Positions 21,648 to 52,307 of a DNA stretch of 64,000 nucleotides are shown here, piece by piece. Numbering within the stretch: position 1 is the first letter of the stretch; every line of letters begins with the position of its first letter. Position numbers and translations under genes: made by a program. Origin of the DNA: a virus. The DNA lies in IMG/VR virus record IMGVR_UViG_3300009499_000148, positions 42,060 to 106,059 of that record. The stretch is one strand, 5' to 3'. Below the pieces are notes generated by a model that searched no databases, had not been told where the DNA came from, and was given only the letters and a program-made list of their open reading frames with translations.

Positions 21648-22083
21648 GCTCTTGTTTCTTTTTCTGAAACTTTCCTGACTGTTTCTTTTCAGCCTTCTGC
21701 TCTTGTGGCTGTTGAACATCAACACTTTCTGTCGTATCAACGCTCAACCCAAGCACTTTTGACTGCTCTTGCTCAATCTTAGCATCAGCTGGTGTAGCAA
21801 CATGTTTTGGTTGTTCAACCTCATGCTTCACATCATTCTGCTCCACGCTGCTTACGACGACCTCTGTCTCTACGACTTGTTCGACAACAACATGTGTGTG
21901 CTTAACAGATGTAATGATGTCAGGAGTTGCTTCAGGCTTGGGTGCCTGAGCAACAACCTGAACGTTGGCGTCAATGACATGAACATCGTTTTGGATGAAT
22001 TCACCCTTGTGCGTTGTCGAATAAGACTTGGTGTGGTCCAACCCCTTCACTTCAATGTCATGTCGAATGTGTCTTCGTGCCAT
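21616..22083 (-). CDS. Hypothetical low-complexity protein
   Basis: ORF with ATAGTTA motif 6 nt upstream. Confidence 0.55.
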   Translation of the reverse strand: MARRHIRHDIEVKGLDHTKSYSTTHKGEFIQNDVHVIDANVQVVAQAPKPEATPDIITSVKHTHVVVEQVVETEVVVSSVEQNDVKHEVEQPKHVATPADAKIEQEQSKVLGLSVDTTESVDVQQPQEQKAEKKQSGKFQKKKQEPKTDVPQAGS

Positions 22084-31076: not shown

Positions 31077-31148
31077 CGCGCCCAATGGGATTTGAACCCA
31101 TGACGTAGCAATTTAGAATTGCGTGTTCTACCGCTGAACTATAGGCGC
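31077..31148 (-). tRNA. Amber suppressor tRNA (anticodon CTA)
   Basis: GCGCCTA/TGGGCGC acceptor, GTTC/GAAC D-stem, GCAA-TT CTA AA-TTGC, ATGGG TTCAAAT CCCAT T-arm. Confidence 0.85.
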
Positions 31149-43899: not shown

Positions 43900-45039
43900 T
43901 TACGAAACACCACACCTATCACATGGATTAAAGTTAGCACGGGTACCTCGTAGGTGCGCTTCTCTAAGGCGTCTATACATCCCTCCATGCCATGCATCTT
44001 TTATTGACATTGTCATTGCGTTTCCCATCGTAAGACGCGACCTGTAATCAACATCACACGGATTCATCACACCGTCCCACCAAATGTACATTCTTTCAAA
44101 AAGATATGCACATGGCTTCGTCATCTCTGGGTGCTGTGTGTTGTTGTATGTATCCCATCTCTCCTCAGCGTCTGTCATTGCGACAGTATCGACGATACCC
44201 GACCAAAGCTCGAAGAATGCTTTTTCATCCTGCTCTGTCGTCAATAGCGCTGGATTTTTCAATCGAACGCCCGCAACACGTACCTCCGTCCTACTATTTG
44301 GGTAGTGCTCTTTTTTGATTCGCATGAATTCTTTGACGTTGTTCAGCACTGTCTCAAAATCACCCCTGACACGTATCTTTGCATATTGTTCTGCATCTGC
44401 GCTATCGATTGAGATGACGACAATGCTAACGTTGGCCTTGAGTATTGCATGTGCCACGTCTGATGTGAGACGCGTTCCATTCGTGTTGAGTTTAATATCA
44501 AAAAATGCATCCTTTGATGCAGCGTACGCTAGCATATCACTGATTCTTGGGTGGAGCAACGGCTCACCTCGTGATGCTAACGTTACTGCCCTTGTTCCAC
44601 CAGCAGCAGCCTCATCGATGAGCCTTGTGTAGAGGTCATAGTCCATGTATCCCATGTATCCAGACGACTTTTTATTGAATTGCGTATCGACCTGAAAACA
44701 CATCACGCATCGAAGATTACATGCAGACGCAGGTTCAATCAAAAGATATACAGGAAAATCAGACACAATCTTTTGCTGTGGGTATATGCTCATCTTGTAT
44801 CGATAGACGAGATACGGCACTATACGTGCAGGCTCACATTGGCTGATGAAGTGCTGTTCCTGCGGGCCCCACTCAAAAGGAAGTTCATCACATGCATCTA
44901 GGCTGAGCGCGATGTGGTCGGCGATGCGTGCGTCCTCATCATTTAGTCCAGCCGGCGTCAATTCACGAACGCTCTTTGCAGATATACCATCATGACCCTT
45001 TGTCGGAGTTAAAAATCGATAAAATTCATTCTTTCTCAT
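43900..45039 (-). CDS. Radical SAM/SPASM protein
   Basis: CNLRCVMC, GEPLLHP, NTNG, C..C SPASM. Confidence 0.9.
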   Translation of the reverse strand: MRKNEFYRFLTPTKGHDGISAKSVRELTPAGLNDEDARIADHIALSLDACDELPFEWGPQEQHFISQCEPARIVPYLVYRYKMSIYPQQKIVSDFPVYLLIEPASACNLRCVMCFQVDTQFNKKSSGYMGYMDYDLYTRLIDEAAAGGTRAVTLASRGEPLLHPRISDMLAYAASKDAFFDIKLNTNGTRLTSDVAHAILKANVSIVVISIDSADAEQYAKIRVRGDFETVLNNVKEFMRIKKEHYPNSRTEVRVAGVRLKNPALLTTEQDEKAFFELWSGIVDTVAMTDAEERWDTYNNTQHPEMTKPCAYLFERMYIWWDGVMNPCDVDYRSRLTMGNAMTMSIKDAWHGGMYRRLREAHLRGTRANFNPCDRCGVS

Positions 45040-45420
45040 GTGCTTCACTTTCATGTCGTTGTTTATCTTCGCACCAAATCTCACACAACTCGCACCATTC
45101 ATCCTGAGGCCACAATTTCCATGCGATGAACTCACACAACCACATGTAGCGATGCTTAATAAAATGAATGTCGATAAAATCGAGTGATTTCGCTAATAAC
45201 AGCCTCATGCTACGAATGGGTCGCCTGATGTTCATCAATCACTCCGCATCAACTCAAACGTTATACTATAACAGCGGATGTATCACACAAAAAACGCTGA
45301 CATAATATACATCATATAACGTCGAATGACGTTTTTTCATTGCTTAAGCTGATGTCGTGAATCGAACACGAATCACTTTCTTACCAAGAAAGTACTCTAC
45401 CGTTGAGATACATCAGCGCG

Positions 45421-45983: not shown

Positions 45984-46060
45984 CACCCCCGACAGGAGTC
46001 GAACCTGTATGTGTCCAATTAGCCTTTCAAGCGAGTAGAAATCGCAGGGCATACGAGGGT
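45984..46060 (-). ncRNA. Rearranged tRNA-Arg(TCT)-like RNA
   Basis: 7-bp acceptor, canonical T-arm, GCGA-TT TCT AC-TCGC arm placed before an AATTGGA D-loop-like segment. Confidence 0.65.
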
Positions 46061-46064
46061 TCAA

Positions 46065-46136
46065 AGCTCACGCCGGGAATTGAACCCGGGCCAACTGCTT
46101 ACGAAACAGTCGTTCTACCGTCTAAACTACATGAGC
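46065..46136 (-). tRNA. tRNA-Thr(CGT)
   Basis: Cloverleaf, loop TT CGT AA. Confidence 0.9.
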
Positions 46137-46394: not shown

Positions 46395-46754
46395 TCACGA
46401 GATTTTTCCATTTTCGTCTTTCAGTCGAAGGTGCGAACCGTATAGCTTAAGAGAGCCGAAGAACTCAGGCCATTTTTCGCGTGGTTTGAACCCGATTGCA
46501 ACCTCAACATCATCGATTGCATCCTCTGTCATGATAAGAAAGTCTCCGTACTTTTTAGACTTTTCAAACTGTTCGTCTGATACGATACACGTCACCTTTC
46601 TAAAGTGCTTACTCTGTACCCATTCCTGCATGACTGGGTCATCCTTGAACTTTAAAAACGTAGCAAGGCTTGTGTGTCCGATTGCATTTGCACCCAGTCC
46701 TATCGGAATAGAACTTTTGACGAGGATGTACATCTTAAGCTTCTGTTCTGACAC
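46395..46754 (-). CDS. Peptidyl-tRNA hydrolase, Pth2-like
   Basis: KMYILV..G....GH..L; RKV..V; G..P; LKL. Confidence 0.7.
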   Translation of the reverse strand: MSEQKLKMYILVKSSIPIGLGANAIGHTSLATFLKFKDDPVMQEWVQSKHFRKVTCIVSDEQFEKSKKYGDFLIMTEDAIDDVEVAIGFKPREKWPEFFGSLKLYGSHLRLKDENGKIS

Positions 46755-50929: not shown

Positions 50930-51009
50930 TGGACCCAGACGGACTCGAACCGTCAAGCATTGCAGTCCCGTGTGGGATTTCAATACAACGCCCAGACCAA
51001 CCTGGGCCC
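50930..51009 (-). ncRNA. Ala-accepting tRNA-like RNA resembling a stand-alone tmRNA tRNA-like domain
   Basis: GGGCCCA/TGGGTCC-A with G3:U70, canonical T-arm, no D-stem, no anticodon loop. Confidence 0.6.
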
Positions 51010-51407: not shown

Positions 51408-51412
51408 GTAAA

Positions 51413-51485
51413 TCAGAATGGGTGGAATTGCACCACCACGTGATGGCCCCGAACCACCCATGCTGCTGTTGAACATCACATCCTG
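51413..51485 (-). tRNA. tRNA-Pro(CGG)
   Basis: Loop TT CGG GG; C1-G72. Confidence 0.8.
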
Positions 51486-51488
51486 AAA

Positions 51489-51563: not shown

Positions 51564-51636
51564 TGGTCTCATTCGGAATCGCACCGAACTCCCGTGCTTT
51601 TCAGACACATGCTTTCTCTATGTAAGCTAAGAGACC
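51564..51636 (-). tRNA. tRNA-Phe(GAA)
   Basis: Loop CT GAA AA. Confidence 0.8.
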
Positions 51637-51712: not shown

Positions 51713-51718
51713 ATAAAA

Positions 51719-51788
51719 CGAAGGGCCCAGATTTGACTCCAGAACTTCATCGAATCCCGATGATATGATGCTATTTCACCAGCCCTTC
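51719..51788 (-). ncRNA. tRNA-like element with non-canonical anticodon arm
   Basis: GAAGGGC/GCCCTTC acceptor; TCATCG-GGATT-CGATGA arm. Confidence 0.55.
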
Positions 51789-51795
51789 AGATTAA

Positions 51796-51865
51796 AGCCG
51801 TGGGTATGAATTGAACATACGACCTATCGATTAATATCGATTGCTCTACACTGAGCTACCACGGC
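51796..51865 (-). ncRNA. Thr-like tRNA body with collapsed anticodon loop
   Basis: GCCGTGG/CCACGGC; ATCGAT-ATTA-ATCGAT. Confidence 0.65.
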
Positions 51866-52062: not shown

Positions 52063-52068
52063 AACTGA

Positions 52069-52157
52069 CGGAGAGCAGTGGGCTTGCACCACATACGCAT
52101 AAAGCGCACCATCTGTTTAGCAAGCAGCGCCGAATCTAGATTTTCGATTTACTCTCC
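52069..52157 (-). tRNA. tRNA-Ser(GCT), 8/4 architecture
   Basis: 8-bp acceptor GGAGAGTA/TGCTCTCC, 4-bp T-stem, loop TT GCT AA. Confidence 0.75.
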
Positions 52158-52161
52158 AAAA

Positions 52162-52232
52162 CACCACATGGGAGAATTGCACTCCCGCGAACGACTGGAC
52201 AGGTCGTCATGCTGCTACTACATCAATGCGGT
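52162..52232 (-). tRNA. tRNA-Asp(GTC)
   Basis: Loop CT GTC CA; G73. Confidence 0.82.
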
Positions 52233-52235
52233 AAG

Positions 52236-52307
52236 GGTATCCGACGGGTGTTGCACCCGTGTCTTTCGAGCCACAGTCGAATGCTCTACTGTTGAGCTAC
52301 GGACACC
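52236..52307 (-). tRNA. tRNA-His(GTG)
   Basis: G-1:C73; loop CT GTG GC. Confidence 0.88.

What the first reader, a model, noticed from the sequence alone, without database searches (positions are those of the whole stretch)
45984..46060. tRNA-Arg-like RNA with the D-loop moved 3' of the anticodon arm
Seen (minus strand): ACCCTCG TAT GCC CT GCGA-TT[TCT]AC-TCGC TTGAAA GGC TAATTGGACAC AT ACAGG-TTCGACT-CCTGT CGGGGGT G. Acceptor and T arms are canonical and there is no D-arm after position 9. A D-loop-like AATTGGA follows the anticodon arm instead, with GCC/GGC able to form a D-stem-like helix. Established: ArgRS identity is A20 (right after GG), C35, U/G36 and A/G73, all present. The 25 conventional tRNAs here cover 19 amino acids and only Arg is missing. 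Inference: a functional tRNA-Arg with rewired topology that standard scanners would probably miss, perhaps evading host tRNases.
Basis: partly seen in the sequence, partly recalled or inferred. Interest (0 to 1): 0.8.

Follow-up and report, generated by a model that had tools for sequence, protein, structure and literature searches.

The report
Rewired non-cloverleaf phage arginine tRNA
This 77-base gene in a giant phage's tRNA cluster is very probably a working arginine tRNA (anticodon UCU) that has every standard tRNA part, but with half of the D-arm placed after the anticodon arm; it belongs to a large phage family that gene finders miss and that I found in no paper.

Summary
ARAGORN and the Rfam tRNA model both miss it. 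It is not a one-off. A pattern scan of IMG/VR viral contigs, followed by covariance models, found more than 90 distinct genes with the same layout. A model built without the candidate scores it 85.7 bits (E 1.8e-21); the window's ordinary tRNAs score 24 bits or less.

- **Structure:** the short helix that closes over the anticodon arm covaries strongly.
- **Parts are all there:** moving the "D-stem strand + AAUUGGA" block back in front of the anticodon arm, in silico, makes ARAGORN of 53 members as ordinary tRNA-Arg or tRNA-Ile. It of 53 in their native order.
- **Identity rules hold:** the base after GG is A in 64 of 64 members with an Arg anticodon, and U in 10 of 12 with an Ile or Met anticodon.
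- **Non-redundant anticodons:** rewired Arg genes avoid the anticodons of ordinary Arg genes nearby.
- **Unannotated carriers:** cultured phages that infect Caulobacter, Streptomyces and Microbacterium carry unannotated copies.

Expression, charging and the 3D fold are untested, and so is the idea that the layout evades host nucleases. Other agents of this scan have reported the same family on other DNA. Seven literature searches found no description.

The parts
45984..46060 (-). Whole gene, 77 nt: rewired tRNA-Arg(UCU). No encoded CCA; TAT follows.
   Evidence: 85.7 bits, E 1.8e-21, model positions 1-77; none of the array's tRNAs encodes CCA.
46054..46060 (-). Acceptor stem, 5' strand ACCCUCG. 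It pairs with 45985-45991.
   Evidence: All 7 pairs change on both sides across the family.
46052..46053 (-). U8 A9 connector.
   Evidence: Invariant in 39 of 39 and in 76 of 76.
46048..46051 (-). U-GCC: the 5' strand of the D-stem-like helix. It takes the place of canonical positions 22-25. GCC pairs with GGC at 46022-46024.
   Evidence: 98.6-100% of cells paired, with all four Watson-Crick pair types at each position.
46030..46046 (-). Anticodon arm. Stem UGCGA/UCGCU with U.U on top; loop UUUCUAC at 46035-46041; anticodon UCU at 46037-46039.
   Evidence: The top pair is unpaired in 11 of the 15 closest relatives as well.
46025..46029 (-). Linker UGAAA, which takes the place of the variable loop (positions 44-48).
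   Evidence: GAAA is invariant within this subtype. The structural role is inferred.
46021..46024 (-). GGC-U: the 3' strand of the D-stem-like helix. It takes the place of canonical positions 10-13.
46014..46020 (-). D-loop-like AAUUGGA, equivalent to A14 A15 U16 U17 G18 G19 A20.
   Evidence: A after GG goes with Arg anticodons. (AG goes with G55)..
46009..46013 (-). CACAU connector to the T stem.
   Evidence: The final AU is invariant in 39 of 39. The role is inferred.
45992..46008 (-). T arm ACAGG-UUCGACU-CCUGU.
   Evidence: The T arm plus the 3' acceptor strand is identical over 24 nt to three ordinary phage tRNA-Arg genes and one other ordinary tRNA.
45984..45991 (-). Acceptor stem, 3' strand CGGGGGU, plus discriminator G73.
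46065..46136 (-). Ordinary tRNA-Thr(CGU), 4 nt upstream. It shows that the candidate sits inside the tRNA array.

Best explanation
The gene encodes a working tRNA-Arg(UCU) that reads AGA, and probably AGG, for the phage.

Its core is an internal circular permutation of the cloverleaf. After U8-A9 comes the strand that normally follows the D-loop. Next come the anticodon arm and a GAAA-type linker. Only then come the strand that normally precedes the D-loop and the D-loop motif AAUUGGA, which runs into the T arm.

The two D-stem strands pair across the anticodon arm, giving one long coaxial arm of about ten layers. That is the same height as the D stem plus anticodon stem of an ordinary tRNA.

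The GG of the displaced D-loop is inferred to dock on the T loop and form the usual L-shaped elbow. The A after GG would be presented to the host ArgRS as A20, together with C35, U36 and G73.

The gene would be transcribed with the array and cut out by RNase P and 3' processing, and it would receive CCA after transcription, like its neighbours.

Shown here: the sequence, family membership, helix covariation, identity-linked bases and non-redundant anticodons. Inferred: expression, charging, decoding and the 3D fold.
For: 1. Family. Further members came from covariance-model searches and other scans.
2. Membership. A model built without the candidate scores it 85.7 bits.
3. Helices. On 76 sequences, 95.8% of cells pair, against 59.7% when shuffled and at most 48.6% when the partner is slid. 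The helix across the anticodon arm pairs in 98.6% of cells, with changes on both sides at all three pairs. A count anchored on AATTGGA, independent of any model, gives 150 of 159 cells paired against 81+/-6 when shuffled.
4. All canonical parts are present. Putting the block back before the anticodon arm makes ARAGORN of 53 members as tRNA-Arg or tRNA-Ile, including the candidate as Arg(tct). The native order gives 0 of 53, and deleting the block gives 0 of 53.
5. Identity rules. The base after GG is A in 64 of 64 Arg-anticodon members and U in 10 of 12 Ile/Met-anticodon members (Fisher 7e-11). All 12 Ile/Met members have A73. This matches the bacterial identity sets: A20, C35, U/G36 and A/G73 for Arg; U20 and A73 for Ile (PMC9976931).
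6. Anticodon loops keep U33 and a purine at 37, and 42 of 77 members encode CCA.
7. Non-redundancy. Of 26 loci that also hold ordinary Arg genes, only 4 share the anticodon, against 9.4+/-2.1 expected (p 0.008).
8. A complete 225-kb carrier phage has 24 ordinary tRNAs, none for Arg, and two rewired Arg genes, UCU and ACG.
9. Elbow co-change. The two rewired members with AAUUAGA both have the T loop UGCAA. No member pairs GG with G55.
10. Context in the window. The gene lies 4 nt after tRNA-Thr. AGA and AGG make up 45% of the phage's Arg codons. No ordinary Arg gene is present in the 106-kb record.
11. No ArgRS gene was found in this record or in five carrier phages, so charging would be done by the host enzyme.
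Against: - There are no expression, end-mapping, aminoacylation or decoding data.
- Single-sequence folding is no better than shuffled sequence (z -0.76).
- The 3D docking of GG on the T loop is inferred. The 18:55 co-change rests on two closely related sequences.
- The scans fixed AATTGGA or its variants and the T loop, so conservation at those positions is uninformative. Family members are related, so the shuffle and Fisher figures overstate independence.
- Alignment A4 was fitted to the model.
- One complete carrier (G002) has a rewired UCU gene beside an ordinary UCU gene, and CcrColossus has rewired and ordinary ACG genes side by side. So some copies are redundant.
- The phage record is 29% complete, so an ordinary Arg gene may lie elsewhere in the genome.
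Confidence: 0.8

Rival explanations
1. It is a tRNA-like RNA that is made but does not decode. Examples would be a decoy for host anticodon nucleases or other tRNA-binding defence proteins, or a regulator that mimics tRNA-Arg.
For: The acceptor stem, T arm and anticodon loop would suffice for many tRNA-binding proteins. Some phages carry it next to an ordinary tRNA with the same anticodon. Phage tRNAs are known to counter tRNA-targeting defences (title and abstract of PMC11555353).
Against: A decoy has no need to track the A20/U20 and A73 identity rules according to its anticodon. It has no need to avoid the anticodons of ordinary Arg genes nearby. It would not be the only Arg species in a complete genome with 24 tRNAs. 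It would not need to encode CCA in 42 of 77 cases.
Confidence: 0.1
2. It is a dead tRNA-Arg gene scrambled by a rearrangement, that is, a pseudogene.
For: Gene finders reject it. The array also holds other odd tRNA-like genes.
Against: The same layout recurs in more than 90 distinct sequences from very different phages. Compensatory changes keep every helix intact. The candidate is among the best-scoring members and shows no defect relative to the consensus.
Confidence: 0.03
3. The transcript is cut and rejoined into an ordinary cloverleaf, in the way that permuted tRNA genes of the red alga Cyanidioschyzon are processed.
For: Reordering the segments in silico gives an ordinary tRNA. The covarying strands would pair in either order.
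Against: It would need two internal cuts and two ligations with no bulge-helix-bulge motif. No such pathway is known in bacteria (my own knowledge). The acceptor ends are already in the normal order.
Confidence: 0.02

Closest known systems
Canonical class I bacterial and phage tRNA-Arg(UCU) (Rfam RF00005)
   Same: It has a 7-bp acceptor stem and a 5-bp T stem with a UUCGANU loop. The anticodon loop is 7 nt with U33, UCU and A37. It has U8 and A9, the D-loop motif A-R-Y-Y-G-G-A, and G73. The 24 nt of T arm plus 3' acceptor strand are identical to those of ordinary phage tRNA-Arg genes.
   Different: The order of segments in the core differs. The 10-13 strand and the D-loop follow the anticodon arm instead of preceding it, so the RNA is a three-way junction, not a four-way cloverleaf. 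The Rfam model and ARAGORN do not detect it.
D-armless mitochondrial tRNAs, such as metazoan mt-tRNA-Ser(AGY/UCU) (review PMC7609411)
   Same: There is no hairpin between position 9 and the anticodon arm.
   Different: The mitochondrial tRNAs have lost the D-loop and the D-loop/T-loop elbow contacts, and they are flexible. Here the D-loop motif, the GG and a canonical T loop are all kept and merely relocated. The setting is phages of bacteria, not organelles.
Circularly permuted tRNA genes of Cyanidioschyzon merolae (my own knowledge, not checked here)
   Same: The gene order of tRNA segments is permuted relative to the cloverleaf.
   Different: In Cyanidioschyzon the whole molecule is permuted at the gene level, and processing restores an ordinary tRNA. 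Here only the internal block 10-48 is permuted, the ends are normal, and the mature RNA is expected to keep the new order.
Allo-tRNAs with 8/4 or 9/3 acceptor branches (PMC5389517)
   Same: They are non-canonical tRNAs found in bacteria and phages by metagenome mining.
   Different: Allo-tRNAs change stem lengths but keep the cloverleaf order. The candidate keeps the 7/5 stem lengths but changes the order.

Membership tests
Canonical tRNA (Rfam RF00005 cloverleaf) | Four arms in the order acceptor, D, anticodon, (variable), T, detectable by the family's covariance model. | tested here: not met
   No RF00005 match, even at E<=10. ARAGORN finds nothing. No hairpin lies between position 9 and the anticodon arm.
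Canonical tRNA (Rfam RF00005 cloverleaf) | A 7-bp acceptor stem, a 5-bp T stem with a T-loop, and a 7-nt anticodon loop with U33 and a purine at 37. | tested here: met
Canonical tRNA (Rfam RF00005 cloverleaf) | Aminoacylated and used on the ribosome. | not testable with these tools
Rewired phage tRNA family (undescribed; defined here by models R1 and R2) | Full-length match to a covariance model built from other members. | tested here: met
   85.7 bits, E 1.8e-21, model positions 1-77.
Rewired phage tRNA family (undescribed; defined here by models R1 and R2) | A 3-bp helix joining positions 11-13 to the three bases that lie 2-4 nt upstream of the D-loop motif, enclosing the anticodon arm. | tested here: met
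   GCC/GGC in the candidate. Family covariation.
Rewired phage tRNA family (undescribed; defined here by models R1 and R2) | The D-loop motif A-R-Y-Y-G-G-N lies between the anticodon arm and the T arm, with N=A for Arg anticodons. | tested here: met
   AAUUGGA with anticodon UCU. 64 of 64 Arg members have A.
Bacterial tRNA-Arg identity set (A20, C35, U/G36, A/G73; PMC9976931) | All four determinants are present. | tested here: met
   Sequence and the identity table. That the relocated A sits where A20 sits in 3D is inferred.
D-armless mitochondrial tRNAs | Loss of the D-loop and of the D-loop/T-loop contacts; organellar origin. | tested here: not met
   The D-loop motif and a canonical T loop are retained. 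The phage context is shown.

The most novel reading that the evidence does not exclude
Phages of many bacterial phyla use a class of functional tRNAs (mostly Arg, some Ile or Met) whose D and anticodon domain is internally circularly permuted. This would be the first natural non-cloverleaf tRNAs working in bacterial-type translation. The rewiring would be selected because it hides these tRNAs from host or phage nucleases, or from modification enzymes that read the ordinary D-arm and anticodon-stem geometry, while keeping recognition by ArgRS, EF-Tu and the ribosome.
Probability: 0.2. Interest if true: 0.95.

Novelty: new variant of a known kind. Interest (0 to 1): 0.85.

Why it matters
[quoted passage not shown] A 2020 review of non-canonical tRNAs does not mention phages at all.

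- **For tRNA biology:** a conserved, widespread family that keeps every tRNA part but changes the strand order would show that the L-shape can be built from a different secondary-structure topology.
- **For annotation:** phage tRNA sets, codon-usage analyses and host predictions would be systematically missing Arg and Ile genes. Cultured phages carry unannotated copies.
- **For experiments:** the family would give a natural scaffold for testing what ArgRS, RNase P, EF-Tu, modification enzymes and anti-phage tRNA nucleases actually read.
- **For engineering:** it may be a ready-made candidate for orthogonal tRNA design.

Tried and rejected
- **Near-relative searches:** megablast and blastn of the region against 50,697 phage records found no near relative.
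- **Neighbouring proteins:** searches with the neighbouring 184-aa and radical-SAM proteins gave no related viral loci.
- **Exact 3' match:** an exact search with the 24-nt 3' part found only ordinary tRNAs: three tRNA-Arg genes and one other tRNA.
- **Brochothrix phage hit:** the best blastn hit of the 77-mer, in Brochothrix phages, is an ordinary annotated tRNA-Arg and not a family member.
- **Single-sequence folding:** it is not informative.
- **A15:U48 Levitt-like pair:** I considered this pair as further tertiary evidence. Both bases are invariant in my sample, and CcrColossus has G at both places, so I make no claim.
- **A9-U10 pairing with the final AU of the connector in the short subtype:** when U10 becomes C the partner does not change, so this is not supported.
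- **Stop-codon recoding:** the CUA suppressor tRNA raised this possibility. The standard code already gives about 83% coding, so I did not pursue it.
- **Relaxed ARAGORN call:** a relaxed ARAGORN run gave a 92-nt 'Arg(tcg)' at window 21964-22055. It has no Rfam support and I did not count it.

Full report
**The observation**

- a 7-bp acceptor stem;
- U8-A9;
- U-GCC-C;
- an anticodon stem of four Watson-Crick pairs topped by U.U;
- the loop UUUCUAC;
- UGAAA, GGC-U, AAUUGGA and CACAU;
- a textbook T arm (ACAGG-UUCGACU-CCUGU);
- the 3' acceptor strand and discriminator G.

RNAfold returns the same helices, but the energy is no better than for shuffled sequence (z -0.76). ARAGORN finds 24 tRNAs in the window and skips this one. 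The Rfam tRNA model also skips it, even with E<=10 on a 1.2-kb slice. The window is the 3' 64 kb of a 106-kb IMG/VR virus record rated 29% complete. PHROGs matches to helicase, PhoH and a lytic transglycosylase show it is a phage. Its nearest cultured relatives are jumbo phages at 33% helicase identity or less.

**It belongs to a large family**

I scanned IMG/VR for AATTGGA placed 6-12 nt before GGTTCGANTCC. That spacing is impossible in an ordinary class I tRNA. Parsing gave 77 distinct genes with the same order of parts.
- Anticodons: UCU 43 (45 once two mis-parsed loops are corrected), ACG 19, UCG 6, CCU 5, GAU 2.
- 42 of 77 encode CCA.
- ARAGORN sees 2 of the 77.

Covariance model R1 then found members that lack the fixed motif. 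Their D-loops include AAUUGGU, AAUCGGU, AACUGGA, AAUGGA and AACGGA.

Model R2, built from 20 members without the candidate, scores the candidate at 85.7 bits, E 1.8e-21, over its full length. The best ordinary tRNA in the window scores 24 bits.

**Secondary structure**

On the 15 closest relatives, 95% of cells pair, against 65% when shuffled. The helix that joins positions 11-13 to the three bases upstream of U-AAUUGGA pairs in every sequence. Its pair types are C-G, A-U and G-C at one position and C-G and U-A at another.

On 76 distinct sequences, 95.8% of cells pair. Shuffling gives 59.7%, and sliding the partner gives at most 48.6%. That helix pairs in 98.6% of cells, and all three pairs change on both sides. 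Because that alignment was fitted to the model, I repeated the count using only fixed offsets from the acceptor stem and from AATTGGA. This gave 150 of 159 cells paired against 81+/-6 when shuffled, with 0 of 2000 shuffles as high.

The U.U on top of the candidate's anticodon stem is typical of its subtype: 11 of 15 relatives are unpaired there. It is not a defect.

**All canonical parts, in another order**

In a script, I moved the block 'three-prime helix strand + AAUUGGA' to just after position 9 and dropped the short connector. ARAGORN then called 52 of 53 short-type members as ordinary tRNA-Arg or tRNA-Ile, including the candidate as tRNA-Arg(tct), 73 nt. It called 0 of 53 in the native order and 0 of 53 with the block simply deleted.

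So the family is an internal circular permutation of segment 10-48. The order 22-25, 26, anticodon arm, 44-48, 10-13, 14-20 replaces the order 10-13, 14-21, 22-25, 26, anticodon arm, 44-48. A tandem duplication of that segment followed by loss of the outer halves would produce this order; that origin is my inference.

The stacked arm has about ten layers: U.U, three pairs, the C/linker layer and five anticodon-stem layers. That matches the D stem + position 26 + anticodon stem of an ordinary tRNA, so the distance from anticodon to elbow should be kept. This too is inference.

**Signs of real tRNA function**

1. *Identity bases track the anticodon.* A second scan required a non-A after GG. It returned rewired genes with GAU, UAU, CAU and one CCA anticodon, and none with an Arg anticodon. 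On the model alignment, A follows GG in 64 of 64 Arg members and U in 10 of 12 Ile/Met members (Fisher 7e-11). All 12 Ile/Met members have A73, while Arg members have G, A or U. These are the bacterial identity sets in Table 1 of PMC9976931: A20, C35, U/G36 and A/G/U73 for Arg; U20 and A73 for Ile. The candidate has A, C35, U36 and G73.
2. *Rewired Arg genes fill gaps.* 27 of 74 loci also hold an ordinary Arg gene. Among the 26 of these whose rewired gene is Arg, only 4 share the anticodon, against 9.4+/-2.1 expected by permutation (p 0.008).
3. *Complete carrier genomes.* One 225-kb phage has 24 ordinary tRNAs, none for Arg, and two rewired Arg genes (UCU, ACG). A 311-kb phage has an ordinary UCU gene plus a rewired ACG gene. 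A 248-kb phage has a rewired UCU gene beside ordinary ACG, CCU and UCU genes, so that copy is redundant.
4. *No phage ArgRS.* No ArgRS gene (PF00750) is found in this record or in five carriers, three of them complete. The host enzyme would have to charge these tRNAs.
5. *Elbow co-change.* One rewired Arg of the 225-kb phage has AAUUAGA together with the T loop UGCAACU. In a scan for AATTAGA with T-loop position 55 left free, both true family members have G55. In a scan for AATTGGA with G55, no family member appears. The window's own ordinary tRNAs show the same rule: His, Asp, Phe and Pro-CGG have UGCRA T loops and AG instead of GG in the D loop. This suggests that the relocated D-loop contacts the T loop as usual. 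It rests on two related sequences.

**Context in the window**

The gene starts 4 nt after tRNA-Thr(CGU), at the end of a minus-strand array. Neither it nor any of the 25 array tRNAs is followed by CCA. A 184-aa ORF with no Pfam match starts 8 nt downstream. AGA (26%) and AGG (18.5%) together make up 45% of 1809 Arg codons in 94 long ORFs. No ordinary Arg gene is present in the 106-kb record.

**Distribution**

Cultured phages carry copies with no annotation under the match: Caulobacter phages (CcrColossus, CcrPW, Ccr2/10/29), Streptomyces phages (TunaTartare, Mildred21 and many others), Microbacterium phages (A3Wally, Zooman, Pumpernickel) and Vibrio phages. In TunaTartare and CcrColossus the gene lies in an unannotated gap of the tRNA array and matches the model at 75.3 and 34.3 bits.

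In one genome for each of 185,579 prokaryote species, a slightly narrower pattern hit only 47 stretches. Twenty of those match the model. All twenty are on MAG contigs, and 13 of them lie among 7-24 tRNAs within 8 kb, as in phage arrays.

**Literature**

Seven full-text searches found no description of such tRNAs. I also read into a review of non-canonical tRNAs, which has zero mentions of phage, the identity review and one false lead. [quoted passage not shown]

Other agents of this scan reported the same family on other genomes. I formed my reading before seeing those notes, and I re-tested the claims here.

**Caveats**
- Nothing shows expression, charging or decoding.
- The scans fixed parts of the motif.
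- Family members are related, so the statistics overstate independence.
- The 3D model is inferred.
- The family is not uniform. In a longer subtype, bases 9-11 pair with the three bases after AAUUGGA (59 of 69 cells against 43+/-2.5 when shuffled), which is a different wiring from the candidate's.
- The proposal that rewiring evades nucleases is untested.

Noticed in passing
window 52064-52160 (-): A tRNA-like gene that ARAGORN and Rfam miss. It has an 8-bp acceptor stem (GGAGAGUA/UGCUCUCC) and a 4-bp T stem (GUGG/CCAC) with the loop UGCAAGC. Its D arm has the loop AAUCUAGA. There is a possible UUGCUAA loop (anticodon GCU) and a 5-bp variable arm. It resembles an 8/4 allo-tRNA of the Ser type.
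   Followed up: partly
window 51713-51795 (-): A cloverleaf-like RNA with a 7-bp acceptor stem (GAAGGGC/GCCCUUC). Its middle arm is a 6-bp stem with only a 5-nt loop (GGAUU). No scanner calls it.
   Followed up: partly
window 51796-51865 (-): A good tRNA by Rfam (56.8 bits) whose anticodon loop has six bases (UAUUAA). ARAGORN reports it as tRNA-??? with a two-base anticodon.
   Followed up: no
window 50930-51009 (-): A weak Rfam tRNA match (21.6 bits) with a perfect acceptor stem and T arm and a CUGCAAU loop (Cys GCA?). The arm carrying that loop abuts the T arm directly. Together with the missing Ala gene, this means several amino acids lack a conventional tRNA in this array.
   Followed up: partly
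window 51412-51486, 51564-51636, 52161-52233, 52235-52306 (-): Four ordinary tRNAs (Pro-CGG, Phe, Asp, His) have the T loop U-G-C-A/G-A (G55 instead of U55) and a D loop with AG instead of GG. This is a co-change of the universal 18:55 tertiary pair. The same co-change occurs in two rewired Arg genes elsewhere (L377, L391).
   Followed up: partly
window 31077-31148 (-): A suppressor-type tRNA with anticodon CUA lies far from the array. TAG is the rarest stop codon (9 of 94 long ORFs), but the standard code already gives about 83% coding.
   Followed up: partly
window 46395-46754 (-) and 43900-45135 (-): Two ORFs flank the end of the tRNA array. One is a 119-aa ORF with a weak, below-cut-off match to peptidyl-tRNA hydrolase PTH2 (E 7e-4). 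The other is a radical SAM/SPASM protein.
   Followed up: no
L128 (Caulobacter phage CcrColossus JX100810) 1501-1581 and 1672-1754: An unannotated rewired tRNA-Arg(ACG) sits directly before an annotated ordinary tRNA-Arg(ACG). The next gene, annotated tRNA-Pseudo, has a CUCCGAA loop (anticodon CCG) and an odd 5' half.
   Followed up: partly
loci L006-L124, long subtype (e.g. L039:723-802, L013:3917-3996): In members that have about 9 nt between AAUUGGA and the T stem, bases 9-11 covary with the three bases right after AAUUGGA (59 of 69 cells paired against 43 when shuffled), and base 12 is bulged. In these members the anticodon arm is nested inside a D-arm, a second wiring variant.
   Followed up: partly
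L240 (IMGVR_UViG_3300012582_000005): One rewired-type gene has anticodon CCA (Trp) and the D-loop AAUUGGG. The layout is therefore not strictly limited to Arg and Ile.
   Followed up: no
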